A stretch of DNA of 33,016 nt, from assembly GCA_964611445.1 (NCBI GenBank), contig CAZSYZ010000004.1, forward strand, positions 1 to 33,016, written 5' to 3'. Numbering within the stretch: the stretch's first letter is position 1; every line of letters begins with the position of its first letter. Positions 559-33,016 of this stretch are shown here, in pieces. The translations under genes were made by a program, and so were the position numbers. The notes under the pieces are model-generated. The model saw only the letters and a list, made by a program, of their open reading frames with translations. It had not been told where the DNA came from and did not search any database. The DNA is from an uncultured archaeon (GTDB lineage: Archaea > Aenigmatarchaeota > Aenigmatarchaeia > QMZP01 > JAFGSV01).

Positions 559-1734
559 ATGCTGTTTTTATATATTAATTACTATAAAGTGGTTAATGTG
601 TTATTGAGAGAGGATTACGGAATAGTATCCAGAAGCGAGAAGGATTTCAGGAGGGGCGCCACATACCCGAAGACTGGAAGAGAATTCGTATACTCAGGTC
701 CCACAAACGAGATGATTTCATACATTTCCGAGATAGACAGGCATGTTGAAGGGGGGAGAATATCCCAGGCGCTGCTAGAGAAGTACGAAAAGGGCTCGAT
801 ACTGCACGTTTTCTACAAAAACGGTGATGAGGATAAAGTTGCGGTCATAATCAATGGAATAACAGGCATGATACCGTTTAAGAACGATGAGGAAGTCGGC
901 GACTTCGGACGCAACAAAAGTGAGTACCGCAAAGGCACCCTCCTGAAGGATATATGCAAGAAGAGCCAGAAGACGAGAATTCCCGTTATATATCATCAGG
1001 CTGAAATGACCCCGATAGACCACGGTTTCAGGGAATGTGAATACCCGCTTCTTGGCCTGCTCACGGAAATAACGAAGCAACTGGATGAGGACAGCTATCT
1101 GCTTGTTGGCGATACCGCGCCGTGCTTCTATTTCGACAGCAAGTACAGCGGTAAGAGGGCCTTCGTGAGCGATTTCGATTTCGTGTTCAGGGACGACCCC
1201 AAGAGCATGTCAGACATATTCGGGACGGTCTACAACTCGCCTCTTATAAGGCGGGAAAGGACAAGAACAGTCTTGGGTACTGCGACGAGGAGAGATGAGA
1301 TAGAGTTCGACAATTATCCGAGATACCTGTCAGAAAAAGAACCTTTTGACAACTGCTGCCTTTTCCATGAAACCATAGGGCCTATAAAGGTCCAGCCAAA
1401 GAGCTTTGGAAAAAGCAATTTTCTTGTCGCGACTGAAAGCGGGGTATCCCCCGTTTCAGTTGCCGAGCCGCCTCTGATAGCCGCAACCATGGGAAACCCG
1501 CGCTCTTATCTGAAGAAGAGGAGAATGTTCATCCAGCACATGATAAGAAGCTTTGAGCCGGGAGATGCGCAGATGATAGGCGAGGCCACGAAGGAGTACT
1601 TCAGGGAGGCCATTTCAGCAGGAAGGCTCAGCATAGACGACTTTGAGTACCCTCTCAGGGATTTCTCGATAATAGCCAGAAAAACAGGAGACCAAAGCCT
1701 TCAGAGATTCGTTAAGGCAGCTTACAACGTTTAG
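559..1734 (+). CDS. Hypothetical protein; true start probably downstream (GTG 598 or ATG 712)
   Basis: Long ORF with protein-like composition, convergent with the transglutaminase-like gene. AT-rich TATA-like boxes at about 549-577 argue for a start after 590. No family recognised. The segment LLVGDTAPCFYFDSKYSGKRAFVSDFDFVF faintly resembles the GGT..(x)n..R.S.D.DF signature of DUF1814/AbiEii nucleotidyltransferases. Confidence 0.6.
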   Translation: MLFLYINYYKVVNVLLREDYGIVSRSEKDFRRGATYPKTGREFVYSGPTNEMISYISEIDRHVEGGRISQALLEKYEKGSILHVFYKNGDEDKVAVIINGITGMIPFKNDEEVGDFGRNKSEYRKGTLLKDICKKSQKTRIPVIYHQAEMTPIDHGFRECEYPLLGLLTEITKQLDEDSYLLVGDTAPCFYFDSKYSGKRAFVSDFDFVFRDDPKSMSDIFGTVYNSPLIRRERTRTVLGTATRRDEIEFDNYPRYLSEKEPFDNCCLFHETIGPIKVQPKSFGKSNFLVATESGVSPVSVAEPPLIAATMGNPRSYLKKRRMFIQHMIRSFEPGDAQMIGEATKEYFREAISAGRLSIDDFEYPLRDFSIIARKTGDQSLQRFVKAAYNV

Positions 1735-3629
1735 CCGCCGAAAAGGCTTCTGAAAAAGTCGAGTATGGCCATTATTATCGCCTCGATGCCATCGGAGACC
1801 TCTTCCTTCAGCGTCTGGGTCCTGTACACTTCTACATTACCTGACCATCCGTCCTTGTATATGCCCTTGCTGTTCAGGAGCGACACCATGACGCTTTTCG
1901 TGCCCTCTGTCTCCGAAGTGAACTCGAATCCCACTGTGCTTTCGGATTCCTTCCCCACGGTCACGCTCTTGGTCTCGGTGTTCCCTTCGAACTGGAATGT
2001 GACGGACCCCGTCGTCTCCTCCCCCGTGTTGAACACGGTGACGTTCAGGAGGCCGTATGTTCCCGCCTCGATAGATTTCGTCATCTTTATCTCGGTTATC
2101 TTCAGCTTCCTGTCGCTGATGACGGTTATAGTCTCGCTCCTGAGGTCGCCGCTGCTTGCGAAGACGCTCAGGTCGTATTCGCCGGGCGACTCCGGTGCCG
2201 TGAACGTGAAGCTGGCTTCGCCGCTTTCCCCGTGTTTGAGGCTCAGGTCACGCTCCTCTATCTCATCCCCGAAAACCGCGAATACCCTTAGGTCCAGTTC
2301 TTTGAACCCGGCATTCCTCAGCCCGGTGGTGACGTCGATCTGCTGGCCGGGAATAACAATCTTCTGGCTCGATAAGGCCATGTCCACCGCGTCTCCGATG
2401 TCCGAGGTTATCGAGACGGACGCCTTGGCAGTCCCGCCGCCCCCCGCCGCGGTCACTGGGCAGGTATACTTGATCCCGCGCCTCACATGGGGCGTTTCCC
2501 CGAACCAGAAGAACCTCGCGCTGTCGCAGAAGGACACTGCCTGCTTTGTCTTCTCGATGCCGATGAGGCTGCTTCCCCCATCGTCCACGCAGCTGGCGAT
2601 GCGCAGGTTGGTCGCTACGCATCCCTCTGCTTCCATGTCCGCTATGATCATGACGCTCTTCCCGCCGACCACGGATTCGGGAACGGCTTCAAGGACGGTC
2701 GTGATTCTGGGACTTTCCCTGTACTCTACAATCTCCAGCCTCGTTTCTTCCTTTTCCCATCCTATCGATACGTCCCTGCTCTTCACCTCGGTGTGCTCGG
2801 TGAAATTCGAGTCGGGAAGCTTTGCGAACGTGACGTGCGTCGCGTCCACGGGGGATTCGGCCCACGTGGGGTCGAAGCTGTGCGTCTTCCCCAGAAGCCT
2901 TGCCTCCACCCATGCGTGCGGGCCGAACGATTCGCCCCCTTCCTGCTTGCCTCCGAGGTAGGCGTAGCCCGCGACGTACCAGGCGTCGTAGTCGAGCGTC
3001 CTCAGCATGGAAAGCAGCAGGTTGGAGAACTCGTCGCAGGTTCCCCTGCCTTCATCGAAGACCCACGCCGCCGGGAACGCCTCCTTCTCGCATGAAAGGT
3101 CGTAATCCACGTATTCGTTGACCCAGTTGCTCAGCAGCAGCATGCCCAGGATGCTCTTCTCGGACCCGCCCGCGTTGTACGCGGCCTCCATTATGCCCTG
3201 AGAAGGATGGATGACGGAAGTAACGGGGAAGTCCCTCACGTCGCCGCTGGACTTGGACTCGACCTCGACAACCGTCTCGACGAGGTAGTCTATCTCGCTG
3301 TCGAGCCTCGGCCTTCCCCAGTGCAGGACTATCTGCCTGTTCCCGTAGCCGTCGTCGTCGAAATCATAATCGTCAGGCCCGATGACCTTGCTCACGGTCA
3401 CGCTCTGCCTGCCGTTCTCCTGCGGTATGTAGAGCCTGAGCGAAAGCTCTTGGGCCGTGGCATGCGGTGATCCCGAGTTCAGCGTTATGTGGCCCGACTG
3501 CATCACCTCAGCCTTCATGTAGGTTACGTTCTCGGGATCGCTTATGACCTGCGCGGAACAGGTGACAGATATAAGCGCGAGTGCCGAAAAAACGACAATC
3601 GTCAACGATGCCAGAGGACGTCCATTCAT
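1731..3629 (-). CDS. Secreted transglutaminase-like (Cys-His-Asp) protein with C-terminal Ig-like repeats and a hydrophobic C-terminus
   Basis: N-terminal signal-like MNGRPLASLTIVVFSALALISVTCSAQ. Transglutaminase core GRGTCDEFSNLLLSML..YVAGY..GPHAWVEARL..SFDPTW. The C-terminal half is beta-rich, repetitive and CARDB-like, ending in a hydrophobic tail. Confidence 0.8.
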   Translation of the reverse strand: MNGRPLASLTIVVFSALALISVTCSAQVISDPENVTYMKAEVMQSGHITLNSGSPHATAQELSLRLYIPQENGRQSVTVSKVIGPDDYDFDDDGYGNRQIVLHWGRPRLDSEIDYLVETVVEVESKSSGDVRDFPVTSVIHPSQGIMEAAYNAGGSEKSILGMLLLSNWVNEYVDYDLSCEKEAFPAAWVFDEGRGTCDEFSNLLLSMLRTLDYDAWYVAGYAYLGGKQEGGESFGPHAWVEARLLGKTHSFDPTWAESPVDATHVTFAKLPDSNFTEHTEVKSRDVSIGWEKEETRLEIVEYRESPRITTVLEAVPESVVGGKSVMIIADMEAEGCVATNLRIASCVDDGGSSLIGIEKTKQAVSFCDSARFFWFGETPHVRRGIKYTCPVTAAGGGGTAKASVSITSDIGDAVDMALSSQKIVIPGQQIDVTTGLRNAGFKELDLRVFAVFGDEIEERDLSLKHGESGEASFTFTAPESPGEYDLSVFASSGDLRSETITVISDRKLKITEIKMTKSIEAGTYGLLNVTVFNTGEETTGSVTFQFEGNTETKSVTVGKESESTVGFEFTSETEGTKSVMVSLLNSKGIYKDGWSGNVEVYRTQTLKEEVSDGIEAIIMAILDFFRSLFGG

Positions 3630-5088: not shown

Positions 5089-6231
5089 ATGATAATGAAA
5101 GAGAAGCCGGAATGGGCGGAACTGGCGACATTCGTGCCGAACAAGAAGCTCCCGGTCTACAACTGGTTCTACTACAAGGAGGGATTCAGCCGCGACCTCG
5201 TCTTCAGGCTGATTGAAAAGTTCAAGCTTGAGAAGGGTGACACGGTCCTCGACCCCTTCTGCGGCGCGGGCACCACACTGCTGGCATGCAGGCAGAAGGG
5301 ATTGGAGTCTGCCGGTTTCGACGTCCAGTCCTCCGCGGTCTTTGCAGCCACGGTCAAGACGAGGGATTACGACCTGAATGCTTTGGACGATGCCGGAAAG
5401 GAGCTGCTTAAGGCGAGGTTCGAGAAGCCGGACTGGGGCACGACAAGTGCATTCGTCAGGCGCGCCTTCAACGGCCACACCCTGGACGACGTGCTCTTCT
5501 TCAGGGACAGGATAATGCAGGTACGCGACAACGCCGTGCGAGACTTCCTGATGCTGGCCCTCATCAACGTCACCATGAAGTGCAGCTACGCATGGAAGGA
5601 CGGCGCCGTCATCAAAATCAGGAAGCATCCGGTCCCGCCTCTGAGGAAGCTCCTGAAGAGGCAGCTAAGATACATGCTCAGGGACGTCAAAGGCTTCAGA
5701 TGCACGGAAGCCGGATGCAGGGTCGGCTTCGGTGACGCGAGGAAGATGAAGCTTCCCGACTCCTCCGTGGACGCCGTCATAACTTCACCGCCTTACCTCA
5801 ACAAGATAGAATACGCGAAAATCTATTCCATAGAGGACGAGCTTTTCTTCTCAGGCATGGGGCTGACGCCGCTGCGCTCGCACATAGGCATGGACCCGGA
5901 GAAGGCGCTTGCAGAAAAAAGCAAACTGGAAGACATAACGGATGTAAGCGGTTTCAACCCCCAGGCAACGGCCTACTTCAGCGACATGCATGAGGTCATA
6001 AAGGAGCTCCGCCGCGTCTGCAGGGACGGCGCGAAGCTCGGTATCGTCGTGGGCAACGGATGCTTCCCCGACGGCGTCGTAGATTCGGACGTTATACTCA
6101 GCAGGATGGCGGAGCATGCGGGATTCAAGGCCAGTGAATTGCTTGTGCTCAACAAGCGCTGGTGCACCAGGAACCGCGTGGAGAAGGTCGGAATCACGAG
6201 GGAGAGCCTGCTGTTGTGGGAAACAGCTTAA
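5089..6231 (+). CDS. SAM-dependent N6-adenine/N4-cytosine-type methyltransferase, motif I before motif IV; no adjacent recognisable endonuclease
   Basis: ATG at 5089 (MIMKEKPEW) lies just after the rfcS stop. The part of track ORF 4582-6231 upstream of it overlaps rfcS out of frame. Motif I is GDTVLDPFCGAGTTLLAC near the N-terminus. Motif IV is DAVITSPPYLNKIEY about 170 aa later, so the target-recognition region lies between them. Confidence 0.8.
   Translation: MIMKEKPEWAELATFVPNKKLPVYNWFYYKEGFSRDLVFRLIEKFKLEKGDTVLDPFCGAGTTLLACRQKGLESAGFDVQSSAVFAATVKTRDYDLNALDDAGKELLKARFEKPDWGTTSAFVRRAFNGHTLDDVLFFRDRIMQVRDNAVRDFLMLALINVTMKCSYAWKDGAVIKIRKHPVPPLRKLLKRQLRYMLRDVKGFRCTEAGCRVGFGDARKMKLPDSSVDAVITSPPYLNKIEYAKIYSIEDELFFSGMGLTPLRSHIGMDPEKALAEKSKLEDITDVSGFNPQATAYFSDMHEVIKELRRVCRDGAKLGIVVGNGCFPDGVVDSDVILSRMAEHAGFKASELLVLNKRWCTRNRVEKVGITRESLLLWETA
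6169..6197 (+). repeat. Direct repeat core, copy A (inside the live methyltransferase tail)
   Basis: AGGAACCGCGTGGAGAAGGTCGGAATCAC is identical to 7315-7343 by manual alignment. Weaker co-linear similarity extends over about 6148-6231. Confidence 0.9.
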
Positions 6232-6310
6232 TTTGCCCTAATAATCGGAAAAATCGAGTATTACTCGGAAAAAACGATATATATTTAAAGCGTTATTCCT
6301 ATTACTAGTC

Positions 6311-6922
6311 ATGATTGTAGAAAAAGTCCTAGGTTCGAAATCAAAAATATCCATACTCAGAATATTCCACGGTCATCCAAAAAAAGAGTTTTGCCTGGAG
6401 GATATGAGGAAGATTCTAAAACGTTCAACCGGAACGATCCATCCGCCACTTTCCGAACTATCCGATTCGGGAATCCTCAATGCGAGGCGTATAGGCCGCA
6501 CGACTTTGTACAAATTGAACGAAGACCATCCTTTCGTGATTGCTTTCAGAAATATATTCAGGACAGAAAACGACTTCATGAGAAAAGCCGCAAAGGATTT
6601 TGTCAAAAAAATGCCCAAGGAAGGTATAATTTCGGTGATACTCTTCGGTTCTGTCGCTAGAGACGAGTCCGTGGCCGGAAGCGATGTAGACCTGCTGGTG
6701 ATATATTCCAAAAAACGAAAGAATGTTGAGGATAGTGTGAGCAGAATAGCGGAGGATTATTTGAAGAATGGTATACACATTTCTCCTGTATTTTACTCGC
6801 GTACGGAAATTGTTAACATGGAAAGAAAATACAACAGCTTTTTGATAAGGGTTCAGGATGAAGGGAATGTTCTTTATGGGATTCCGATAAGGAGCATTTT
6901 GCATGGCAAGAAACGTGAATAA
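6311..6922 (+). CDS. Winged-helix + minimal nucleotidyltransferase (MNT) domain protein, antitoxin-type partner of HEPN
   Basis: N-terminal wHTH-like region (SILRIFHGHPKKEFCLEDMRKIL..GILNARRIGRTTLYKL). Pol-beta type NTase signature ILFGSVARDESVAGSDVDLLVIY. Overlaps the downstream HEPN gene by 20 nt. Confidence 0.85.
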   Translation: MIVEKVLGSKSKISILRIFHGHPKKEFCLEDMRKILKRSTGTIHPPLSELSDSGILNARRIGRTTLYKLNEDHPFVIAFRNIFRTENDFMRKAAKDFVKKMPKEGIISVILFGSVARDESVAGSDVDLLVIYSKKRKNVEDSVSRIAEDYLKNGIHISPVFYSRTEIVNMERKYNSFLIRVQDEGNVLYGIPIRSILHGKKRE

Positions 6923-7289
6923 AGTCGAAGCTGGAAATTACCTGAACAAGGCCTGTGAATTTCTTGATGAAGCGAGAGACGCGATGCTCAAGTCACGCTT
7001 CACAGCTGCCGCCTTCAACTCAATACAGGCGATAATCAACGCGAACGACGCCTTGACGATAGCTGTCAGCGGCATAAGGGCATCAAAGGATCACAGGGAA
7101 GCTGTCAGGACGCACACGGAGACCGTCAGTGTTATGGGAGACAGTTCGGGTAAACAGATTCTCGTAAAGGCATTGAATCTCAGGTCAGAAATAGGTTATT
7201 CAGGAAGGCCCGCCTCTAAAGCGCAAGCTGACGCGCTTCTGAAGGACGCTGTCAGGTTCATTGAGTGGGTCAAAAGATACGCCGAATAG
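6903..7289 (+). CDS. HEPN domain protein (toxin-type partner of MNT)
   Basis: All-helical 128 aa protein with Rx4H motif RASKDH. It is translationally coupled to the NTase gene, the classic MNT-HEPN pair layout. Confidence 0.8.
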   Translation: MARNVNKVEAGNYLNKACEFLDEARDAMLKSRFTAAAFNSIQAIINANDALTIAVSGIRASKDHREAVRTHTETVSVMGDSSGKQILVKALNLRSEIGYSGRPASKAQADALLKDAVRFIEWVKRYAE

Positions 7290-7293
7290 TCCC

Positions 7294-7377
7294 TTCATAC
7301 AAGCCAGATGTACGAGGAACCGCGTGGAGAAGGTCGGAATCACTAGGTAGAGACTCCTCATCTGGGGGAAGTTGTAA
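7294..7377 (+). pseudogene. Displaced, decaying copy of the methyltransferase 3' end
   Basis: Reads ..RCTRNRVEKVGITR*RLLIWGKL* against the live tail ..WCTRNRVEKVGITRESLLLWETA*. TAG at 7348-7350 replaces GAG at 6202-6204. Contains the 29 nt identical core at 7315-7343. Confidence 0.75.
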
Positions 7378-7439: not shown

Positions 7440-8081
7440 ATGAGGACATTCAAGGACATCTCATTCGAGTGGAAGGACTACAAATTTGACCTGACGATAT
7501 CTGAAGATAGATTCGCACGTGTTTCAGGATCGTTTTTGGGATACGAAGATGGGACAATAGCCAAAAGTGCTGCGGCCATGGCTTTGAATGCCGTGGTTAA
7601 TAACCGACGCGGTTCTCCCGAAATAAATAGCGCGACATTTGAAAAAATAATGAAAGAAACCGGCTCTAGCAGGGCTGCTATTCTGGATGCCCATGGAGAC
7701 ACTTTCGAGAAAAAATGGTATTACAGTGACAAAAGGACGGAAGGTCCGGAAGACCGGATGTATGGTGACTGGAAATATAAAATTGATAAAAGCGAGGTTA
7801 CATTCAACGGTGAAAAGATATCTATTTGCCAATTCAAGGAGATTCCTGGCGGGTTCATCTTTCCTGCAAAAGAGGGGATTATGGAGATTCATCCCCTTGA
7901 TTACTGGATAGACAAACAAGAAGATATGGGTTATGGAGCATTGATATTTCATTCGTGCAATCCGGATGGGCACGAACCCGTAGTGAAGGGCACGCCTATT
8001 TTTTACGTGCATGGCGATATCGGACTGCTTGGAAAGTACAAAACAAAGATACTATCCCCTGTTGGAATCGATTTAAAGTGA
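7440..8081 (+). CDS. Hypothetical protein (213 aa)
   Basis: Clean ORF with a TATA-like box (GGTTTAAAAAAC) upstream. AT-richer than the backbone, no recognisable motif. Its stop abuts the isf stop on the other strand. Confidence 0.55.
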   Translation: MRTFKDISFEWKDYKFDLTISEDRFARVSGSFLGYEDGTIAKSAAAMALNAVVNNRRGSPEINSATFEKIMKETGSSRAAILDAHGDTFEKKWYYSDKRTEGPEDRMYGDWKYKIDKSEVTFNGEKISICQFKEIPGGFIFPAKEGIMEIHPLDYWIDKQEDMGYGALIFHSCNPDGHEPVVKGTPIFYVHGDIGLLGKYKTKILSPVGIDLK

Positions 8082-8663
8082 TTACTTCTTCAGCACCTCG
8101 GCTATCTTCATGCCGAGGTTCTCGCACGTCTCTATGCCGATCTTGTCGTCTTCCGGCCTGCTTCCGCGCGGGACCCATGCTATGCCTCCGAAATGGGCGG
8201 TGTCCTTGTCGGCCACGGTTATCATCTCGTGCAGGTGCATCCAGTTCATTATCTGCTGGCATACGAGTTCCTGCCCGCCGTTCCTGCTCGCGCCGACCGC
8301 TATGGCCCCGCCTACCGCCTTGCTGAGCATCCTGCCGTTCCTTCTGAGCGGGAAAGTCCTCTCGAAGAAATCCTTCAGCCTTCCGCTGACGAGCCCGAAA
8401 TAAACGGGGCTTGCCACTATCAGCGCGTCGGCGCCGGCCATCTTCCCGTATATTGCCTGCATGTCATCCTTCTGGCTGCATTCGAACCTCGTCTTGCAGA
8501 GGTCGCATGCGGTGCAGGGCTTTATGTCCTTGTCCCAGAGCGTGACCGCTTCCGTTTCAATTCCTTCCTTTTCGACAGCATCTAATGCCTTCCTGAGGAA
8601 GAACAGCGTCGTGCTTTCCTTCCTGTGCGAGCCGCATATTCCTAACACTTTCATGGCAACCAT
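8082..8663 (-). CDS. isf: Iron-sulfur flavoprotein / NADPH-dependent FMN reductase family
   Basis: Flavodoxin-like N-terminus MKVLGICGSHRK and compact cysteine cluster CTACDLCKTRFEC (Cx2Cx2Cx5C), typical of archaeal Isf. The start could instead be the second ATG at 8654. Confidence 0.85.
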   Translation of the reverse strand: MVAMKVLGICGSHRKESTTLFFLRKALDAVEKEGIETEAVTLWDKDIKPCTACDLCKTRFECSQKDDMQAIYGKMAGADALIVASPVYFGLVSGRLKDFFERTFPLRRNGRMLSKAVGGAIAVGASRNGGQELVCQQIMNWMHLHEMITVADKDTAHFGGIAWVPRGSRPEDDKIGIETCENLGMKIAEVLKK

Positions 8664-8681
8664 CTGATGAGCCCGAAGGGA

Positions 8682-8800
8682 TTTTCAGAACCGCGCGGAA
8701 GCGTACACCCTTTCATTGACGCTTTTGCGCTTATCTGCGCACCCGCGTCAGCGTACTTTCCGCGAACGCTTTTGCATGTTTACTTATGCAAAAGGGTTCA
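8682..8800 (-). other. tRNA intron 2 (119 nt, non-canonical position 59/60 in the T-loop)
   Basis: The T-stem is followed by a 3 nt bulge (AA|U), then a 4 bp helix UUCG/UGAA (one GU), then a 3 nt bulge (AA|U), then outer helix GAACC/GGUUC. The interior has further hairpins (UUUUGCAU..AUGCAAAA, GCGC-AGAUAA-GCGC, CGCGGAA..UUCCGCG). The exact boundary is ambiguous by 1-3 nt because of sequence redundancy. Confidence 0.65.
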
Positions 8801-8822
8801 TTCGAACCCTCAACCTGCCGGT

Positions 8823-8864
8823 ATCTTCCCACGCTTTTACTCAAGCTTTTTCTAAAAGCTTGGT
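8823..8864 (-). other. tRNA intron 1 (42 nt, canonical position 37/38)
   Basis: The anticodon stem is followed by a 3 nt bulge (AU|A), then a 4 bp helix CUUC/GAAG, then a 3 nt bulge (GG|A), then outer helix CCA/UGG. The intron also contains hairpin AGCUUUU-AGA-AAAAGCU. Confidence 0.75.
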
Positions 8865-8925
8865 CCGAAGCCGGCCGCAATATCCAGGTTATGCTACGGG
8901 CCCACATGATAAAATAAGCGAATTG

Positions 8926-8934: not shown

Positions 8935-9053
8935 GCTCCCTTAGTTTCTGGAGCTCCCTTTAGGGACACTATTCCCTTAATAAAGCCTTAAGTCAATTAT
9001 ATTTGTTATTGTTCAATTTCTGGGAGAATGGGCAATACCGGAGAGGAAAGAAA

Positions 9054-9266
9054 ATGTCCAACCTGTTTGCAGAGAGGAAGTTGGTCTTCAGGCCGATGGA
9101 ACAGTTTGATGTTGACATCAGGGGTATGGATAGGGAAGAGAAACTGGAACGGATAAATTATTTTGCAAGGGATGATCATTTTGAAGTGAAGTTTAAAGGA
9201 TTCATCCACATGCTGGACAGTTTCTCTGTTAAAAGGGGCGAATGGGTAGAAGTCGAAGACAGATGA
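9054..9266 (+). CDS. Small hypothetical protein (70 aa)
   Basis: ATG at 9054 preceded by GGAGAGGAAAG. Charged soluble sequence, no motif recognised. Confidence 0.4.
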   Translation: MSNLFAERKLVFRPMEQFDVDIRGMDREEKLERINYFARDDHFEVKFKGFIHMLDSFSVKRGEWVEVEDR

Positions 9267-9455
9267 ATAAAGGCGAGAAATTTCTTTTGTGAGTCAGGTC
9301 CTGAAAATATATCTGTGCAGCACTTACGAGGGGCTTCCCCACGCGAAGAACCAGTAAAAATAGTTATACAGATGTTCACCTTCTGCATCCCCGTACTCAA
9401 AATCAATTTATGATAGCAAACACAAAATTAATCACTAATGAAATGATGATAAATT

Positions 9456-9644
9456 ATGAATAGAAAGCAGGTGCTTGGACTGGTTTTTGCAATATTCGGG
9501 GCATCCATGATGGCACAGGTTTTCGGTGTCATCATAGACTGTTCAAATATCGTCTGCACCCCGTTTTCAGGCATATTGACCATTCTTCTTACCGTTATCG
9601 CCTTACTGTCAATAATTTTTGGCTACGACAATATTGTGAAATGA
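9456..9644 (+). CDS. Small membrane protein (62 aa, two predicted TM helices)
   Basis: Two hydrophobic stretches: VLGLVFAIFGASMMAQVFGVII and ILTILLTVIALLSIIFG. Confidence 0.45.
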   Translation: MNRKQVLGLVFAIFGASMMAQVFGVIIDCSNIVCTPFSGILTILLTVIALLSIIFGYDNIVK

Positions 9645-9647
9645 TTC

Positions 9648-9712
9648 TCAAGGATACACCCTGCTTATGGTCCGCGGGAATGTTACTCAGTCCGCTGTTC
9701 GGGTGTCCGTCT
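9648..9712 (-). pseudogene. Displaced, decaying copy of the asnS 3' end
   Basis: The minus strand reads D*VTFPRTISRVYP* against the live tail DCIAFPRTISRVYP*. In-frame TGA at 9689-9687 replaces TGC. Contains the 31 nt identical core 9650-9680. It lies 3 nt from the stop of the convergent 9456-9644 ORF. Confidence 0.75.
9650..9680. repeat. Direct repeat core, copy B (asnS tail remnant)
   Basis: AAGGATACACCCTGCTTATGGTCCGCGGGAA is identical to 10779-10809 by manual alignment. Confidence 0.9.
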
Positions 9713-9735
9713 GCCTGACGGAACAATTCTGGGAT

Positions 9736-9924
9736 TCACTTCTTTTCAAGTATGTTGCGCCTTTTCTCTACTGCCGCAGCAAGGGCCTCTATCTCCTTCT
9801 CGTAGTATTCGGCGAGGCCTATGTCGCCTGATTCCTTCGCGGTTTCAAGCTTCTTCCTGTGTATTTCTATCTGCTTTTTCAGGGATTCAATCCCTTTCAG
9901 CAGCCTTTTCTTTCTTTTCGGCAT
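9736..9924 (-). CDS. Small coiled-coil protein (62 aa)
   Basis: MPKRKKRLLKGIESLKKQIEIHRKKLE.. is Lys/Glu-rich with heptad character. Overlaps the 3' end of the upstream NTase gene by 38 nt in another frame. Confidence 0.4.
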   Translation of the reverse strand: MPKRKKRLLKGIESLKKQIEIHRKKLETAKESGDIGLAEYYEKEIEALAAAVEKRRNILEKK

Positions 9925-10693
9925 CTTTCAGCAGCTCCTCAAACAGGCCAATAGCCTTGGCGATGGTCTGCCCGTCGAATTCACACCTCTTCGGTTTTCT
10001 TCCATCCCTTACCCCCCTGTAGCGGTCTATGAGCTTAATAGAATCGCCCTTTGTTATCCCTTTCTTTTTCAGCGACTCTTCCAGTATCTTATGGGAGTAG
10101 TTTCTCTTTTCTGTGATGCATTTTATGAGAAGCATCTCCTTTATGCGCATTAAGATGGGATATACGAGGTCGCCTTGGTTTCCACCGGTTTCATACAGGC
10201 TTCTTATGACATTGAGGGACGAACGCGCGAGCCCCAGCCTCTCCCTGAACCCCCTTCCATTCTTCAGCGGCCTGAGTTCGGAAATGAAGCTTTCATTGAA
10301 CAGTATCCTGGATCCTTCTATGGTGTCTCTCATTATGATGTCATTTTCTGCCGCATTCATCAGCTCCTGCCTCTCCATCACCCTTATGTCATAATTCATG
10401 TCTTTCAGCTCCTTTGGAATTTTCATGCTTTTTGCATGTGCGTCCGTGACGACTATTACGTCTATGTCCGACCCCTCAGTCTGCTCGTTTCTCGCATAAG
10501 AACCGTACAGCAGGATGCTTACGACATGTTTCATGTTTTCCGCCAGCGCGAGCGGAAGGTCCTTCTCCGGTTCTGCCGGTCTTGACAGGAGTCTTACCTC
10601 TGCCTGTCCGCCAATCCACGAGGAAGGGACATACACGCCGCCTGAATTCCCGTACTTTTTTACAGTTTTCGTCACGACTTCTGGTGAAATCAT
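9887..10693 (-). CDS. AbrB/SpoVT-like DNA-binding domain fused to a minimal nucleotidyltransferase domain and a C-terminal helical (HEPN-like?) domain
   Basis: N-terminus VKKYGNSGGVYVPSSWIG is AbrB/MazE-like. NTase signature LLYGSYARNEQTEGSDIDVIVV. The helical C-terminal half has only an Rx3H (RNYSH), so HEPN assignment is tentative. Confidence 0.8.
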   Translation of the reverse strand: MISPEVVTKTVKKYGNSGGVYVPSSWIGGQAEVRLLSRPAEPEKDLPLALAENMKHVVSILLYGSYARNEQTEGSDIDVIVVTDAHAKSMKIPKELKDMNYDIRVMERQELMNAAENDIIMRDTIEGSRILFNESFISELRPLKNGRGFRERLGLARSSLNVIRSLYETGGNQGDLVYPILMRIKEMLLIKCITEKRNYSHKILEESLKKKGITKGDSIKLIDRYRGVRDGRKPKRCEFDGQTIAKAIGLFEELLKDAEKKEKAAERD

Positions 10694-10776
10694 GTATATA
10701 CATAGTATATACTCATTTATAAGCTTATCCCAAGGACACTAAAGTAGGATTCAGAAAAAGGTGTCAAGTCGGAAGC

Positions 10777-12060
10777 CTAAGGATACACCCTGCTTATGGT
10801 CCGCGGGAACGCTATGCAGTCCCTTATGTGGTCCACGCTGCATATCCACTGGGTAAGCCTCTCGACGCCGAGCCCGAAGCCCGCGTGCGGGACCGAACCG
10901 AACTTCCTGACGTCCATGTACCAGCCGTAGTTCGCGGGGTCGGCGCCTTCCCTCTTCAGGTTCGCCAGAATCTTCTTCGGGTCAACTTCCCTTGCGGAGC
11001 CTCCTATCAGTTCGCCGCCGGACTCGCCCGGAGCTATGAGGTCCGCGTTGAGGACGGTCTTTTTGTCTTTCGGGTTCTCCAGCATGTAGAAGGGCCTCGC
11101 CTCCTTGGGCCAGTTGGTTATGAAGAACGGCTTCCTGAAGTGCTCCGAGAGCGCCCTGAGCTGCAGGTCCGTCACGTCGTCGCCCCATTTCATCCTGACG
11201 TCCTTCTTCCTCATCATTTCGGTCAGCTCCCTGTACGTTATCCTTCTGAACGGAGGCTTGACACCCGAAAGCATCTTCACGTCCGCGCCCAGCTCCTGCA
11301 GCTCCTTTTTGTGCTTCTTCAGACACGCCTGCACTACGTGCGATACCAGCTCCTCCTGGAGCTTCAGGGAGTCCTCGTGGTCAATCCATGCGGCCTCGGC
11401 CTCCGCGTGCCAGTACTCCGCGAGGTGGTGCCTCGTCCTGCTCTTCTCGGACCTGAAGCTCGGCGCTATGCAGTATATGTTCTCGAGGGACGCTATGAGA
11501 GCTTCGGCGTGCAGCTGCCACGACTGCGTCAGGTAGGCCTTCTCTCCGAAGTACCTCATCTCGAACAGCGTGGAGCCTCCCTCACAGGCCATCTTGGTTA
11601 TCGAGGGCGACTGTATCTCGAAGAAGCCACGGGACCTGAAGAACTCATGTATGGCGCCGAGAATGGTCGACCTGACCTTGAATATCTTCAGCAGTTTCTG
11701 GCTCCTCACCCACAGGTGCCTGTTGTCCAGCAGCAGTTCGGGGCTCTGCTGCTCCTTTATGGGGAAGTCTTCTGCAAACCCGACGACCCTGAAATCGGTA
11801 ACATGAACCTCGTAGCCTCCGGGGGCCCGCTCGTCCTTCCTCACATTGCCCGTGAGTTCCACTGATGACTCGATCAGCGCCTTCTGCGCGTCCTTGAAGC
11901 CTTTCACGCCCTCCTTCACCACGCACTGGACTATGCCCGTGGAATCCCTGAGAACCACGAAGGAAATGTCCTTCCCGGACCTGGTCCTGTATATCCATCC
12001 CTTCAGGAGCACTTCCCTCCCGGCCTTCTTTCCGATATCGGCTATGACAGTCCTTTCCAT
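10777..12060 (-). CDS. asnS: Asparaginyl-tRNA synthetase (class IIb)
   Basis: N-terminal OB fold. LLLDNRHLWVRS. Motif 2 FRSEKSRTRHHLAEYWHAEAE. YGWYMDVRKFGSVPHAGFGLGVERL motif 3 region. About 427 aa. AspRS cannot be fully excluded without alignment. Confidence 0.8.
   Translation of the reverse strand: MERTVIADIGKKAGREVLLKGWIYRTRSGKDISFVVLRDSTGIVQCVVKEGVKGFKDAQKALIESSVELTGNVRKDERAPGGYEVHVTDFRVVGFAEDFPIKEQQSPELLLDNRHLWVRSQKLLKIFKVRSTILGAIHEFFRSRGFFEIQSPSITKMACEGGSTLFEMRYFGEKAYLTQSWQLHAEALIASLENIYCIAPSFRSEKSRTRHHLAEYWHAEAEAAWIDHEDSLKLQEELVSHVVQACLKKHKKELQELGADVKMLSGVKPPFRRITYRELTEMMRKKDVRMKWGDDVTDLQLRALSEHFRKPFFITNWPKEARPFYMLENPKDKKTVLNADLIAPGESGGELIGGSAREVDPKKILANLKREGADPANYGWYMDVRKFGSVPHAGFGLGVERLTQWICSVDHIRDCIAFPRTISRVYP
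10779..10809. repeat. Direct repeat core, copy A (live asnS tail)
   Basis: Identical to 9650-9680. Decayed similarity continues for roughly 30 more nt into the gene. Confidence 0.9.
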
Positions 12061-24336: not shown

Positions 24337-24795
24337 ATGACATATACAGAAATAAAGGAAATGAATGGGAAAAAATACTATTACAGAGTCAGAAGCGTCA
24401 GAAAGGGTAAAAAATTCAAAAAGGAAAGGATTTACCTGGGGGTAAATTTATCCGGCCAAAAATTATCCAAAAAAGAAAATCAGGCGGATAAAAAATTATT
24501 GGAAGATAAGGTAAACGAAGGTTTAAAGGTGATAAAACCCCAAATAATTAGAATCTTAAGGAAAAATAAGATAAAAAGGGCCGGGATATTCGGTTCTTAT
24601 GCCAGAGGAGAGCAGAAAAAAAACAGTGATATTGACATCTTGATACAACCCACGAAAGATACAGGGTTTGGTTTTGCTGGTATTGAGATTGAACTGGAAA
24701 AAACGCTGAAGAAAAAGGTCGATTTAGTAAGCTATAACGGCATAAGCCCGTATTTGAAAGATCAGATTCTAAGCCAGGAAGTGAGAATAATATGA
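24337..24795 (+). CDS. mntA: MntA-type minimal nucleotidyltransferase antitoxin
   Basis: GIFGSYARGEQKKNSDIDILIQ signature. 4 nt overlap with the hepT start. Confidence 0.85.
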   Translation: MTYTEIKEMNGKKYYYRVRSVRKGKKFKKERIYLGVNLSGQKLSKKENQADKKLLEDKVNEGLKVIKPQIIRILRKNKIKRAGIFGSYARGEQKKNSDIDILIQPTKDTGFGFAGIEIELEKTLKKKVDLVSYNGISPYLKDQILSQEVRII

Positions 24796-25142
24796 ATGAA
24801 AAAAGGGATTTCATTTTTATCAAGCATATTCTGGAAAGCGTAAATGCAATAAATGATTTTTCCAAGGGAATCGACAAGGAAGAATTGACCTCTAGCAGAT
24901 TGAAGCAAAGTGCAATAGTCAGGGAAATAGAGATAATAGGAGAAGCTGCCAAGAATATTTCCAAGAAAACCAAAAACAGATACAGTAATATTGAATGGAA
25001 GGAAATTGCCGGAACCAGAGATAAAATGATTCATCATTATTTCGGGGTTGATTTGGATATCGTTTTAGCCATAATAAAAAAAGATATTCCAGAACTGAAA
25101 AAAGAAATATTGAAAATTGAAAAGGACTTTGAAAATAAATGA
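24792..25142 (+). CDS. hepT: HepT (DUF86) HEPN-domain toxin
   Basis: ILESV..I...., EIIGEAAKNIS and the Rx4HxY motif RDKMIHHY. Confidence 0.9.
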   Translation: MNEKRDFIFIKHILESVNAINDFSKGIDKEELTSSRLKQSAIVREIEIIGEAAKNISKKTKNRYSNIEWKEIAGTRDKMIHHYFGVDLDIVLAIIKKDIPELKKEILKIEKDFENK

Positions 25143-25929: not shown

Positions 25930-26018
25930 TGAAAAATTAAACCGGATTTCTTATTCCTGAACGGGCATGGAAGTTCCGAGTGCTTCTGCGGCTACGAAAA
26001 CGAGCCTGTAATATGCAT
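25930..26018 (+). pseudogene. Isolated ~89 nt fragment homologous to the His-box region of the caspase-like gene at 32708-32797
   Basis: Encodes ..KPDFLFLNGHGSSECFCGYENEPVIC.. with no start, a 1 nt indel and flanking stops. About 84 of 90 positions match the right-hand copy by manual alignment. Confidence 0.75.
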
Positions 26019-29109: not shown

Positions 29110-29871
29110 ATGGGCGGGAAGGACGCGACGGGAAACGCGAACGCGTGCTATGGGGAAAACGGGAAAAGGACGAACAAGATAGCACTCCTCAAGGAGCTTG
29201 GGACATACCCCTTCTTCACGCTGAACGACTTCGTGAGGATTGCAGGCAGGCCGCCCGCCTACTGCTGGACATACCTTTCGAGGCTGAAAAGGGAGGGACT
29301 CGTTTTCAGCATAGAGAGGGGAAAGTACACAGTCCACGAAGACCCGCTCGTGTTTTCCACAAGCATTTCGCCGCCCTCGTACATAAGCTTCTGGACCGCG
29401 ATGAGGTTCCACGGCCTGACCGAGCAGCTCCCCTCGGACGTCATGGTGGCCTCGCCGCGCTCCAAGAAGACCATAGCCTTCAGCGGGACAAAGATAAGGT
29501 TCTTCAGGACCAAGGAGATGTGGGGATTTGCCAAGCAGAGGTACTCCGGCTTTGACATATTCATGGCGGACAAGGAAAAGTGCGTGATAGATTCGCTGCT
29601 CCTAAAAAACGTCCCCTTCGACGAAATAGCCAAAGCCGTCAGGGACGGCGGCTTCGGCCGGGAAATGGCGGATGCGGCCCTCAGGTGCGGCAGCATGTCG
29701 GTGATGAAGAGGCTCGGGTACATGATGGAGAAATCCGGGCTCGTCACGGGAGAAATGGAAAAGGGACTTGACGGGAATTATGTGCCCTTCGACTGGAACC
29801 GGCCAGCGAAGGGAAGCAAATGCAGGAAGTGGAGGATAATAGAAAACAGGCGGTTGGATGATATCGACTGA
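29110..29871 (+). CDS. abiEi: AbiEi-like antitoxin / transcriptional regulator (COG5340 type)
   Basis: wHTH-like FTLNDFVRIAG..YLSRLKREGLVFSIERGKY, then SYISFWTAMRFHGLTEQLP. ATG 29110 lies about 25 nt after TTTTATAAAGG. Overlaps abiEii by 14 nt. Confidence 0.8.
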   Translation: MGGKDATGNANACYGENGKRTNKIALLKELGTYPFFTLNDFVRIAGRPPAYCWTYLSRLKREGLVFSIERGKYTVHEDPLVFSTSISPPSYISFWTAMRFHGLTEQLPSDVMVASPRSKKTIAFSGTKIRFFRTKEMWGFAKQRYSGFDIFMADKEKCVIDSLLLKNVPFDEIAKAVRDGGFGREMADAALRCGSMSVMKRLGYMMEKSGLVTGEMEKGLDGNYVPFDWNRPAKGSKCRKWRIIENRRLDDID

Positions 29872-32567: not shown

Positions 32568-33016
32568 GTGGTAAGAAACGACTACGACCCCATAACGCAC
32601 TACATGTACGAATGGTCGAAGCCAGTGATTTCGCTTGCGGCCAAAAAGGGGTTCGATGTGGACAATGTCGGTCCCGTGGTAACGAAAAAGGAAATACTTT
32701 CCAGGATTGAAAAATTAAGCCCGGATTTCTTGTTCCTGAACGGGCATGGAAGTTCTGACTGCTTCTGCGGCTACGAAAACGAGCCTGTCATATGCATGCC
32801 GGATTGCGGAATATTCAGGGGCAAGATGGTATTTTCCAGATCATGCGACTGTGCCAAGGGTCTCGGCAGGAAGGCCGTGGATAAGCACGGCTGCACTGCC
32901 TTCATAGGTTATGAATATGAATTTATCAACGTCCGTCTGACGACCAGCGAACTGACACCCATGAACGACTATGTATCCAGGCCTATCTGGGAAACCTCGA
33001 ATGCGGTGCCGACGAG
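32568..33016 (+). CDS. Caspase-fold (clan CD-like) protein, 5' part only; start uncertain (GTG 32568 or ATG further in)
   Basis: Open to the window edge, so absent from the track. LLVVRNDYDP..SPDFLFLNGHGSSDCFCGYE..GKMVFSRSCDCAKG. That is a beta-strand followed by a His-Gly dyad, then a beta-strand followed by Cys, as in caspase/gingipain/legumain-type folds. Confidence 0.55.
   Translation, partial: MVRNDYDPITHYMYEWSKPVISLAAKKGFDVDNVGPVVTKKEILSRIEKLSPDFLFLNGHGSSDCFCGYENEPVICMPDCGIFRGKMVFSRSCDCAKGLGRKAVDKHGCTAFIGYEYEFINVRLTTSELTPMNDYVSRPIWETSNAVPT
32708..32797 (+). repeat. Right-hand copy of the ~90 nt repeat (inside the live caspase-like gene)
   Basis: Matches 25930-26018 with about five substitutions and one indel by manual alignment. 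Confidence 0.85.

What the first reader, a model, noticed from the sequence alone, without database searches (positions are those of the whole stretch)
9648..10840. Second nucleotidyltransferase cassette is bracketed by two copies of the asnS gene tail
The final codons of asnS plus its stop (10777-10840) recur at 9648-9712. A 31 nt core is identical (10779-10809 = 9650-9680). The live tail reads DCIAFPRTISRVYP*(TAG). The remnant reads D*VTFPRTISRVYP*(TGA), with an in-frame TGA replacing the Cys codon. The remnant lies 3 nt from the stop of the convergent 9456-9644 ORF, which looks like the original tail-to-tail gene junction. The intervening ~1.06 kb carries its own TATA box, the AbrB-NTase fusion gene and a 62 aa coiled-coil ORF. 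All are co-directional with asnS. Geometry and size match the methyltransferase-linked cassette.
Basis: seen in the sequence. Interest (0 to 1): 0.72.

Follow-up and report, generated by a model that had tools for sequence, protein, structure and literature searches.

The report
Mobile toxin-antitoxin-like cassette at asnS tail
A 1.1 kb two-gene nucleotidyltransferase cassette with no recombinase of its own was inserted exactly at the stop codon of the asparaginyl-tRNA synthetase gene of a DPANN archaeon, leaving a dead second copy of the gene's tail; the same layout recurs around related cassettes elsewhere, which offers a way to study how such small "addiction" modules move.

Summary
The repeat is real: 9650-9693 matches 10779-10822 (40/44), with an exact 31-nt core never seen in shuffles. 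It is about 46 nt long, not 64.

Between the copies lies a self-contained module:
- its own TATA box and twin GTATATAC operators;
- a DUF2080/AbrB-NTase-helical protein;
- a conserved 62-aa coiled-coil partner.

Aenigmatarchaeota relatives have empty sites.

The same two-gene module occurs in many unrelated contexts. Several copies are flanked by other locus-specific duplications (rpS7 tail, PD-(D/E)xK gene tail, intergenic DNA), sometimes in arrays with three repeat copies. An unrelated Methanosarcinales genome carries a VapBC-like cassette inside a duplicated asnS tail.

I found no integrase, transposase or terminal inverted repeats.

The best reading is reciprocal recombination between the chromosomal asnS tail and a pseudo-tail carried by incoming cassette DNA; the enzyme is unknown. 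The closest known cases are integrase-mediated integration into gene 3' ends, integrase-less CIMEs, and "insertion with long target duplication" of bacterial restriction-modification systems.

Verdict: a new variant of a known kind, of moderate-to-high interest.

The parts
10777..12060 (-). asnS (asparaginyl-tRNA synthetase, 427 aa), the target gene
   Evidence: Pfam tRNA-synt_2 2.9e-75 plus OB anticodon-binding domain. Syntenic orthologues 74-85% identical in Aenigmatarchaeota MAGs.
10777..10822 (-). Proximal (live) repeat copy: the last 14 codons of asnS plus a TAG stop. Exact core 10779-10809. Reads as a hybrid 'attL': native asnS on the gene side, cassette DNA from the stop codon onwards.
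   Evidence: TAG stop here versus TGA in 9 of 11 close relatives.
10694..10776 (-). Left end of the cassette: 55-nt spacer, TATA box (10715-10722) and two palindromic GTATATAC operator-like sites (10705-10712, 10694-10701) abutting the ATG
   Evidence: Read. The motif TTATAAAT-n-GTATATAC-nnn-GTATATAC-ATG is conserved upstream of homologues in L083, L006, L084, L086, L087, L170 and L171.
9887..10693 (-). Cassette gene 1: DUF2080/AbrB-like N-terminal domain, Pol-beta-type nucleotidyltransferase, and C-terminal helical bundle (268 aa)
   Evidence: Pfam NTP_transf_2/Polbeta. NCBIfam NF033496 DUF2080, 37.9 bits against a cutoff of 22. AlphaFold2 model pLDDT 88. Foldseek best matches are Hailong HalB, kanamycin NTase ANT(4') and MNT antitoxins, TM about 0.5. 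Invariant G64 S65 / D76 D78.
9736..9924 (-). Cassette gene 2: 62-aa basic coiled-coil protein, overlapping gene 1 by 38 nt
   Evidence: An overlapping 61-65 aa ORF with the same motif (KRKKR..KGI.S...QIE.H...YYEKEI) follows every full-length homologue inspected.
9694..9735 (-). Right-end spacer of the cassette, containing the small hairpin CCGTC-AGGCA-GACGG
   Evidence: Read. No homology to asnS or to other cassettes was found.
9648..9693 (-). Distal repeat copy: dead pseudo-tail D*VTFPRTISRVYP* with the ancestral TGA. Reads as 'attR', continuous with native downstream DNA.
   Evidence: The 3-nt junction to the convergent membrane ORF is the same as in the empty site of L032.
9456..9644 (+). 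Convergent 62-aa membrane ORF marking the original downstream flank
   Evidence: A 64.5%-identical homologue lies 3 nt from the asnS stop in L032 (CP070804.1).
6146..7377 (+). Sister case in the same window: DNA-methyltransferase gene tail (live copy ending 6231), wHTH-NTase (6311-6922), HEPN (6903-7289), then a dead MTase pseudo-tail (about 7292-7377, with an in-frame TAG)
   Evidence: In relatives L004, L002 and L032 the MTase stop lies 10-13 nt from the FMN-reductase stop, an empty site.

Best explanation
The segment of about 1.08 kb between the two repeat copies (9694-10776) is a horizontally acquired, self-contained two-gene module. It has its own archaeal promoter with twin GTATATAC operators. 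It encodes a DUF2080/AbrB-NTase-helical-domain protein and a conserved 62-aa coiled-coil partner. It is best read as an autoregulated toxin-antitoxin or defence-type 'addiction' module, not a recombinase.

It entered at the asnS stop codon by reciprocal (Campbell-type) recombination. The partners were the chromosomal asnS 3' end and a degenerate copy of that tail carried by the incoming, probably circular, cassette DNA. The crossover fell inside the 31-nt identical core.

This produced two hybrid copies. The proximal copy is native asnS up to the core plus a cassette-supplied TAG, and keeps asnS intact. The distal copy is the cassette's pseudo-tail plus the native TGA and the native junction to the membrane ORF.

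The cassette encodes no recombinase, so the reaction was catalysed in trans. Candidates are host homologous recombination acting on short homology, or a tyrosine integrase encoded elsewhere.

Shown: the insertion, the empty site, the hybrid structure, module mobility, and the recurrence of target duplications and arrays.
Inferred: the circular intermediate, the crossover in the core, the enzyme, and the toxin-antitoxin function.
For: Repeat and core.

Empty sites: in L032, L004, L031 and L001 a single tail corresponds to both copies.

Hybrid structure: the distal copy keeps the relatives' TGA and the 3-nt spacer, while the proximal copy switches to TAG plus cassette DNA. All six differences lie outside the 31-nt core.

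Foreign character: GC 47% against 58% for asnS. NTase homologues are at most 59% identical and lie in other contexts.

Recurrence: in a scan of 46 homologous modules, flanking direct repeats exceeded the cross-locus control maximum (31.5 bits) in the window (62), L087 (60, promoter-like), L134 (58) and L088 (37); L139 scored 31.5, equal to that maximum. L083 has a 28-nt repeat.

L170: 44 nt of the rpS7 tail are duplicated at 91% identity with spacing 1133. All 5 differences are synonymous third positions, so the second copy is another allele of a functional tail rather than an in-place copy.

Arrays with three repeat copies separating different TA cassettes: L158, L147, L134. This is what serial recombination at one site produces.

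Independent asnS case: L040 (Methanosarcinales) has an asnS-tail duplication around a VapBC-like pair.

Shared cassette end: L006, a relative, has a 53%-identical NTase immediately after asnS, and the first cassette bases after the stop (GGCTT) are the same.

Literature: integration into 3'-distal parts of protein genes with 29-69 bp att sites is established in archaea (PMC6563490). An archaeal integrase with homologous-recombination-like activity is known (PMC8371274).
Against: No integrase was found in the 33-kb window or within about 4 kb of the other repeat-flanked cassettes. No circular form or strain-level empty site could be retrieved: an exact-core search of metagenome and viral contigs gave 0 hits.

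The model does not explain how a cassette first acquires a copy of a new target, yet each locus has a different repeat.

The differences in the window's asnS remnant are not synonymous. The pooled codon-position test is weak (23 of 46 differences at third positions; p=0.014 against 1/3, not significant against 0.44).

Most family members inspected have no detectable flanking repeat. A sliding-window comparison of asnS showed no mosaic signal.
Confidence: 0.55

Rival explanations
1. Eroded integrative element. A larger element with its own tyrosine integrase integrated site-specifically into the asnS 3' end, giving true attL/attR. Everything except the addictive two-gene module was later deleted, because loss of a toxin-antitoxin module is counter-selected.
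For: Repeat length (about 46 nt, 31-nt core) lies within the 29-69 bp range of crenarchaeal att sites, and 3'-distal parts of protein genes are known archaeal targets (PMC6563490). The core-plus-imperfect-arms structure is typical of att sites. The tRNA-Ser 3' half is repeated at 100% around small TA cassettes in L134, as in classical tRNA-targeted integration. This model explains why what remains is always a TA-type module.
Against: At least seven independent loci have the repeats hugging the same minimal promoter-to-stop unit, with spacings 1022-1193 and four of them within 1129-1139. Repeated erosion to the same boundaries while the repeats stay 91-98% identical is unlikely. No integrase fragment or other element gene remains in any of them. 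Cassettes of one family carry unrelated repeats, which would require many different integrases.
Confidence: 0.2
2. In-place 'insertion with long target duplication'. The cassette DNA carried no tail copy. It was joined into a widely staggered break, or copied in by template switching. Fill-in synthesis duplicated about 46 nt of the target, and the distal copy then decayed.
For: This is the pattern described for bacterial restriction-modification units that carry no mobility genes and have variable repeats longer than 30 bp, some overlapping gene 3' ends (PMC2853133). Repeat length varies widely between loci here (22 to over 85 nt). Repeat sequences share no motif. The model explains how new targets are acquired.
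Against: Differences are not spread as decay predicts. In the window they all lie outside a perfect 31-nt core and include both bases of the stop codon. In L170 all 5 differences are synonymous. In the MTase case the dead copy carries relative-like synonymous states and a relative-like ...W-x-K ending, while the live copy has a novel ETA* ending. Arrays with three repeat copies need repeated hits on the same sequence.
Confidence: 0.15
3. The cassette was already next to asnS, and the incoming DNA was the downstream block (membrane ORF and neighbours). That block arrived from a relative by one-sided homologous plus illegitimate recombination, bringing a fragment of the donor's asnS tail with it.
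For: The block 9003-9644 is very AT-rich (40% GC) and is absent from most relatives. L006 has a homologous cassette directly after asnS. L032 shows the asnS-tail/membrane-ORF junction existing as a unit.
Against: It does not explain why cassettes elsewhere are bracketed on both sides by duplicated target (L170, L147, L158, L088, L134), nor the second case in this window. A donor close enough to share 31 of 31 nt would not be expected to differ at 4 of the next 12 positions.
Confidence: 0.06
4. Chance similarity or assembly chimera at a shared k-mer.
For: The window is probably a metagenome contig, and no reads were available.
Against: No shuffle reproduces the core. The repeat is in frame and codon-for-codon a gene tail. 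The same architecture is present in independent assemblies from other samples (L170, L040, L147, L158). A 31-nt identity is shorter than the final k of common assemblers (my own knowledge).
Confidence: 0.03

Closest known systems
Integrase-mediated integration into the 3' end of a protein-coding gene (archaeal iMGEs of Thaumarchaeota and Crenarchaeota; bacterial e14 / phage 21 in icd, recalled from memory)
   Same: The target is the 3'-distal part of a conserved gene. The element supplies a substitute tail so that the gene stays intact. The displaced original tail remains as a dead direct repeat at the far end. Repeat length is tens of bp (29-69 bp in Crenarchaeota, PMC6563490), and an identical core is flanked by imperfect arms.
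   Different: Those elements are multigene (kb to tens of kb) and encode their own tyrosine recombinase. This unit is 1.08 kb, holds only a two-gene NTase module, and has no recombinase in 33 kb.
CIMEs (cis-mobilizable elements) and integrase-less satellite cassettes that accrete at an ICE att site, e.g. at the 3' end of fda in streptococci (PMC7563491 lists CIMEs; tycheposon satellites recalled from memory)
   Same: Flanked by att-like direct repeats at a gene or tRNA 3' end, with no recombination genes. Tandem accretion gives arrays with three or more repeat copies, as in L158, L147 and L134.
   Different: CIMEs are defined relative to a known cognate ICE or integrase that uses the same att site, and none was found here. 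They are bacterial. Here the repeat sequence differs at every locus for one cassette family.
'Insertion with long target duplication' of restriction-modification gene units (Nobusato 2000, recalled from memory; Furuta 2010, PMC2853133)
   Same: A small addictive gene unit with no mobility genes. Variable direct repeats longer than 30 bp, both of which align to one sequence in the empty genome. Repeats may overlap the 3' end of the neighbouring gene.
   Different: Described for restriction-modification systems in bacteria; no archaeal case passed their screen. Here the cargo is NTase/HEPN/VapBC-type modules in archaea, and the pattern of differences argues that one copy was imported rather than duplicated in place.
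MNT-HEPN (type VII) toxin-antitoxin modules and the Hailong HalB nucleotidyltransferase
   Same: A Pol-beta-fold NTase with GS...DxD, in a two-gene autoregulated operon. Structural matches to HalB, ANT(4') and MntA.
   Different: No separate HEPN toxin with an Rx4-6H motif and no HalA channel. The partner is a 62-aa coiled-coil protein. An N-terminal DUF2080/AbrB domain is fused. The HalB and MntA NCBIfam scores are far below cutoff.

Membership tests
Insertion with long target duplication (criteria of Furuta et al. 2010, PMC2853133) | Direct repeats longer than 30 bp flanking the insert | tested here: met
   44 nt at 91%, with a 31-nt exact core.
Insertion with long target duplication (criteria of Furuta et al. 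2010, PMC2853133) | Both repeats align with a single sequence in a related genome lacking the insert | tested here: met
   L032, L004, L031 and L001 have one asnS tail and no cassette. These relatives are only 78-85% identical in AsnS, so this is not a strain-level comparison.
Insertion with long target duplication (criteria of Furuta et al. 2010, PMC2853133) | No other mobility genes in the insert | tested here: met
   Only the NTase and the 62-aa ORF are present. No integrase or transposase hit in Pfam or NCBIfam.
Insertion with long target duplication (criteria of Furuta et al. 2010, PMC2853133) | Insert carries restriction and modification genes | tested here: not met
   The cargo is a DUF2080-NTase plus a coiled-coil protein.
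Self-encoded integrative element (tyrosine or serine recombinase with attL/attR) | Recombinase gene inside the element | tested here: not met
   None in the cassette or anywhere in the window.
Self-encoded integrative element (tyrosine or serine recombinase with attL/attR) | Direct repeats with an identical core at the element boundaries, and a restored target gene | tested here: met
   31-nt core. asnS reading frame complete with a new TAG stop.
CIME / integrase-less satellite of an integrative element | Flanked by att sites and devoid of recombination and transfer genes | tested here: met
CIME / integrase-less satellite of an integrative element | A cognate integrase-bearing element that uses the same att site | tested here: inconclusive
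   None found in the window, in 71 asnS loci, or in viral contigs. The rest of the genome was not available.
Integron gene cassette | attC site (imperfect inverted repeat with a GTTRRRY core) at the cassette end, IntI/attI nearby, usually promoterless | tested here: not met
   The repeat is a coding gene tail with no internal inverted repeat, and I saw no GTTRRRY by eye. No integrase. The cassette has its own TATA box and operators.
DNA transposon / MITE / casposon | Terminal inverted repeats and a target duplication of fixed length; transposase or Cas1 for autonomous copies | tested here: not met
   No inverted repeats at the cassette ends. Duplication length varies from 22 to over 85 nt between loci. 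No transposase or Cas1.
DUF2080 family (NCBIfam NF033496) | Score at or above the curated cutoff | tested here: met
   Residues 5-31, 37.9 bits against a cutoff of 22.
MNT-HEPN type VII toxin-antitoxin | Minimal NTase with GSx10DxD, plus a cognate HEPN protein with Rx4-6H | tested here: not met
   The NTase motif is present (G64 S65, D76, D78 invariant). There is no HEPN Pfam hit for gene 1's C-terminus or for the 62-aa partner. MntA NCBIfam scores 29 bits against a cutoff of 60. The neighbouring MTase-linked cassette does meet it (NTase plus Pfam HEPN).
Hailong (HalA/HalB) defence system | HalB equivalog score and an adjacent HalA ion-channel gene | tested here: not met
   HalB scores 36.9 bits against a cutoff of 190. 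The partner is a 62-aa soluble coiled coil. There is only fold similarity, TM about 0.5.

The most novel reading that the evidence does not exclude
Small toxin-antitoxin or defence modules of DPANN and other archaea may be a distinct class of integrase-less mobile cassettes. Each would carry a short copy of the 3' end of a host gene (or tRNA, or intergenic site) as a homing sequence. Each would integrate by homology-guided reciprocal recombination at that site, excise as a circle through the flanking repeats, and accrete into integron-like arrays. This would give a concrete, testable mechanism for how toxin-antitoxin modules spread without transposases. A further, weaker possibility is that the DUF2080 DNA-binding/NTase protein itself helps the reaction.
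Probability: 0.2. Interest if true: 0.85.

Novelty: new variant of a known kind. Interest (0 to 1): 0.62.

Why it matters
Toxin-antitoxin and related defence modules are among the most horizontally mobile genes in prokaryotes, yet most have no recognisable mobility machinery, and how they move is a long-standing gap.

This window gives two clean cases: the asnS tail and the methyltransferase tail. The related loci retrieved here add at least eight more. In these, a minimal promoter-to-stop module is bracketed by a duplicated piece of its target, sometimes in arrays. Empty sites exist in relatives, and in one case (L170) there is evidence that the second tail copy was imported.

That turns the question into specific experiments: junction and circle PCR, and integration assays with a 46-nt homing tail.

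It also extends a pattern known only for bacterial restriction-modification units and for integrase-bearing elements to tiny archaeal cassettes. It further suggests that conserved housekeeping-gene tails serve as safe landing pads in reduced DPANN genomes.

Tried and rejected
- Exact look-up of the window's AsnS protein in the assembly collection: not on record.
- Exact search of the 31-nt core in metagenome contigs and of a 29-nt version in viral contigs: 0 hits. No strain-level empty site or circle could be obtained.
- Search for the NTase family in viral contigs: none. No evidence for a viral vehicle.
- Search for asnS-tail repeats in 15 close relatives and then in 71 asnS loci: only L040. 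The duplication is not a conserved feature of asnS.
- Short (about 1.1-1.2 kb) contigs carrying homologues were checked for terminal overlaps that would indicate circles: none, and they end inside the 62-aa gene.
- Terminal inverted repeats at either cassette: none. A sigma-70/terminator scan was uninformative for an archaeon.
- Sliding-window identity of asnS against eight relatives, looking for a mosaic 3' end: no signal at this divergence.
- Pooled codon-position test for an imported allele: weak overall, convincing only for L170.
- Search for integrases next to repeat-flanked cassettes: found only an IS1595 transposase 2.3 kb away in L088, a VRR-NUC protein in L134, and a Zn-ribbon PD-(D/E)xK protein in L147 and L168. 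None is general and none is present in the window.
- Rfam and tRNA scans of the window: nothing at threshold.
- The integron, casposon and MITE readings were rejected on their defining features (see the membership test).
Full report
**1. The observation**

The window is 51% GC. It comes from an Aenigmatarchaeota (DPANN) archaeon: the AsnS protein has syntenic orthologues of 74-85% identity in Aenigmatarchaeota MAGs.

The repeat finder lists a two-copy direct repeat, 9650-9693 and 10779-10822. It is 44 nt long, 91% identical, with spacing 1129. The 31-nt core 9650-9680 = 10779-10809 is exact. Allowing 3 mismatches, it occurs twice in the window and never in 100 dinucleotide-preserving shuffles.

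Read on the minus strand, the proximal copy gives the last 14 codons of asnS, DCIAFPRTISRVYP, followed by TAG. The distal copy reads D*VTFPRTISRVYP followed by TGA. The distal TGA lies 3 nt from the stop of the convergent 62-aa membrane ORF 9456-9644.

Similarity beyond 9693 is at chance level. The repeat is therefore about 46 nt, not 64. All six differences lie outside the central 31 nt: four in the 12 nt on the gene side and two in the stop codon. Uniform decay would rarely give this (my estimate is about 0.01 or less).

**2. What lies between the copies**

The interval holds one compact transcription unit, co-directional with asnS:
- a TATA box (TTATAAAT, 10715-10722 on the minus strand);
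- two palindromic GTATATAC sites abutting the start codon;
- a 268-aa gene (9887-10693);
- an overlapping 62-aa gene (9736-9924).

The 268-aa protein has an N-terminal DUF2080/AbrB-like domain (NCBIfam NF033496, 37.9 bits against a cutoff of 22). It also has a Pol-beta-type nucleotidyltransferase domain (Pfam), with invariant GS and DxD residues in a 60-member alignment.

An AlphaFold2 model (pLDDT 88) shows an NTase plus a helical bundle. The best structural matches are the Hailong HalB nucleotidyltransferase, kanamycin nucleotidyltransferase and MNT antitoxins, at TM about 0.5. Scores for the HalB and MntA families are far below their cutoffs, so the protein resembles these families but is not a member.

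The 62-aa protein is a basic coiled coil. An overlapping ORF of 61-65 aa with the same motif follows every full-length homologue inspected. The promoter-operator motif is also conserved.

This is therefore a real, autoregulated two-gene module of the toxin-antitoxin or defence type. Nothing in it resembles a recombinase. The cassette is 47% GC against 58% for asnS.

**3. Empty sites and synteny**

In relatives the backbone order is CYTH - (GNAT) - M20 peptidase - asnS - [variable] - tRNA-Arg - FMN reductase, followed by the convergent DNA methyltransferase.
- L004, L031 and L001 have asnS followed within about 40 nt by the tRNA gene, with no cassette.
- L032 (CP070804.1) has asnS tail-to-tail with a 64.5%-identical homologue of the window's 62-aa membrane ORF. 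The stops are 3 nt apart (TGA-ATT-CTA), the same geometry as remnant plus ORF in the window (TGA-GAA-TCA).
- Nine of eleven close relatives end asnS with TGA, as the remnant does. The live copy ends with TAG followed by cassette DNA.
- L006 has a 53%-identical homologue of the NTase directly after asnS. It shares the first cassette bases after the stop (GGCTT), but the contig ends inside the gene.

**4. The module is mobile, and target duplications recur**

The family has about 60 members in the 5.8-billion-protein collection, none more than 59% identical to the window's protein. Members lie in unrelated contexts: between cupin and He_PIG genes, beside PadR and rpS13, after rpS7, and others.

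I compared 500 nt upstream with 120-800 nt downstream of 46 homologous modules. Cross-locus pairs served as the control, with a maximum of 31.5 bits. Flanking same-strand repeats scored:

| Locus | Score (bits) | Note |
|---|---|---|
| window | 62 | |
| L087 | 60 | promoter-like |
| L134 | 58 | 33 nt, 97%, spacing 1139 |
| L088 | 37 | 25 nt plus a gapped extension, spacing 1132 |
| L139 | 31.5 | 22 nt covering the stop codons of the upstream Fic gene and of the 65-aa gene; equal to the control maximum |

L083 has a 28-nt repeat of the rpS13 promoter.

L170 reproduces the window's geometry almost exactly. Forty-four nt of the rpS7 tail are repeated at 91% identity with spacing 1133. All five differences, including TAA versus TAG, are synonymous third positions.

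A self-comparison of all 135 longer loci (1.33 Mb) showed arrays:
- L158: upstream gene | repeat | wHTH-NTase + HEPN | repeat | DUF2080-NTase + 62-aa gene | repeat.
- L147: tail of a Zn-ribbon PD-(D/E)xK gene | HEPN + NTase | short repeat | DUF2080-NTase + coiled-coil + AbiEii/AbiEi | long copy of the tail.
- L134: three copies of a 29-33-nt repeat. In addition, the 3' 42 nt of tRNA-Ser are repeated at 100% around a DUF3368/UPF0175 pair.

In the asnS-retrieved loci, which are unbiased with respect to cassettes, one of 71 has an asnS-tail duplication. This is L040, a Methanosarcinales MAG, with spacing 777 enclosing a VapC-like gene and an antitoxin gene. The repeats share no motif between loci.

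**5. The sister case in the window**

The tail of the methyltransferase gene (ending at 6231) recurs at about 7292-7377, with a 29-nt exact core. It brackets a wHTH-NTase (6311-6922) and a HEPN protein (6903-7289), a canonical MNT-HEPN pair.

In L004, L002 and L032 the methyltransferase stop lies 10-13 nt from the FMN-reductase stop, which is an empty site.

The dead copy carries synonymous states and a ...W-x-K ending like the relatives' genes, plus an in-frame TAG. The live copy ends in a novel ETA*. This fits a hybrid in which the live gene's extreme end was supplied by the cassette.

**6. Mechanism**

What is shown:
- an insertion relative to relatives;
- a hybrid structure of the two copies;
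- no recombinase in the cassette or window;
- no terminal inverted repeats;
- recurrence of the pattern with different targets, and arrays.

What I infer: the cassette arrived as DNA that already carried a degenerate copy of the asnS tail, and recombined reciprocally with the chromosomal tail inside the 31-nt core (Campbell-type). Three observations favour an imported tail over in-place duplication:
- the perfect core flanked by divergent arms;
- the switch of stop codon exactly at the cassette boundary;
- the all-synonymous differences in L170.

Arrays are what serial recombination at one site produces.

The enzyme is unknown. One candidate is host homologous recombination on short homology. 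Another is a tyrosine integrase acting in trans. Archaeal att sites of 29-69 bp and integration into 3'-distal parts of protein genes are documented (PMC6563490), and one archaeal integrase has homologous-recombination-like activity (PMC8371274).

Weak points:
- the model does not explain how a new target copy is first acquired;
- the window's own remnant shows non-synonymous changes;
- the pooled codon-position test is weak;
- most family members have no detectable repeats.

**7. Rivals**

(a) An eroded integrase-bearing element of which only the addictive module survives. This is plausible for att-like structures and tRNA targets. It is hard to reconcile with the same minimal boundaries at seven or more loci while the repeats remain 91-98% identical.

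(b) In-place "insertion with long target duplication", as described for bacterial restriction-modification units (PMC2853133). It explains variable lengths and new targets, but not the distribution of differences.

(c) The downstream AT-rich block, rather than the cassette, was the incoming DNA.

(d) Artefact or chance. The statistics and the independent assemblies exclude this.

**8. Comparison and novelty**

The architecture works like attL/attR of elements that integrate into gene 3' ends, and like integrase-less CIMEs or satellites. It meets three of the four criteria for long-target-duplication insertions; the cargo is not a restriction-modification system. It fails the defining features of integron cassettes, transposons and casposons.

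I found no description of archaeal toxin-antitoxin mini-cassettes bracketed by duplicated gene tails in the searched literature. Furuta et al. state that no archaeal case passed their screen.

I rate it a new variant of a known kind.

**9. Verdict**

Confidence that this is a genuine horizontally acquired cassette insertion with a duplicated asnS tail is about 0.9. Confidence in the specific recombination-with-imported-tail mechanism is about 0.55. Interest is 0.62.

Noticed in passing
window 8668-8903 (-): An unannotated tRNA-Arg(UCG) gene with two introns lies between the membrane-ORF block and the FMN-reductase gene. One intron is at the canonical site after the anticodon loop. The other, about 127 nt, lies in the T-loop region. 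ARAGORN and Rfam miss it in the window. With the intron option, ARAGORN calls the one-intron orthologues in L031 and L001 as tRNA-Arg(tcg), with a 31-nt intron. L002 and L032 share the second intron.
   Followed up: partly
window 25930-26018 and 32708-32797: A 90-nt fragment (93% identical) of an internal part of a peptidase-like gene (…PDFLFLNGHGSS[ED]CFCGYENEPVIC…) is repeated 6.8 kb apart. The right copy lies inside an intact gene that runs off the window; the left copy is an orphan fragment. In between lie two AAA_14/DUF4143 ATPases, an AbiEii NTase and a PQQ beta-propeller protein. This may be a larger insertion of the same kind.
   Followed up: partly
window 24337-25142 (+): A third NTase (152 aa) plus a HEPN-like (116 aa) pair, with an AbiEii toxin at 29858-30622. 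The window is unusually rich in NTase-type toxin-antitoxin modules. No flanking repeat was seen for this pair.
   Followed up: no
window 7440-8081 (+) and 9003-9644 (+): The 213-aa ORF (no family hit, 43% GC) sits between the MTase pseudo-tail and the FMN-reductase stop. The 87-aa and 62-aa ORF block (40% GC) sits downstream of the asnS remnant. Both are absent from most relatives, where the flanking genes abut. These are further AT-rich insertions without detectable repeats.
   Followed up: partly
L040 9251-9279 and 10028-10056: In a Methanosarcinales MAG (AsnS 46% identical), the asnS tail including its TGA is duplicated 777 nt downstream. The duplication encloses a VapC-like (128 aa) and antitoxin (82 aa) pair on the opposite strand. 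This is an independent hit on the same gene tail by a different cassette.
   Followed up: partly
L134 6204-6286, 7640-7681 and about 6761-6798, 8421-8458: The 3' 42 nt of tRNA-Ser(TGA) recur at 100% identity 1.4 kb downstream, with further partial copies. Together they delimit three small integrase-less cassettes: a membrane protein, a DUF3368/UPF0175 pair, and a wHTH protein.
   Followed up: partly
L147 246-1274 and L168 about 990-2031 (-): A Zn-ribbon plus PD-(D/E)xK nuclease gene lies next to DUF2080-NTase cassettes in two unrelated contigs. In L147 its own tail is the duplicated target. In L168 it is convergent and appears frameshifted. It has no homologue in the window. It is a possible but unproven helper nuclease.
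   Followed up: partly
L170 751-795 and 1884-1928: The ribosomal protein S7 gene tail (MEKNRIEKEAEGAR*) is duplicated around a DUF2080-NTase cassette. The two copies encode the same peptide and differ only at five synonymous third positions (TAA versus TAG stop).
   Followed up: yes
L123 2520-3505: Immediately after the right repeat of a two-module cassette lies tRNA-like sequence (GGATTTGAACCC) followed by a LAGLIDADG homing-endonuclease ORF on the opposite strand. This may be an intron-bearing RNA gene serving as the target.
   Followed up: no
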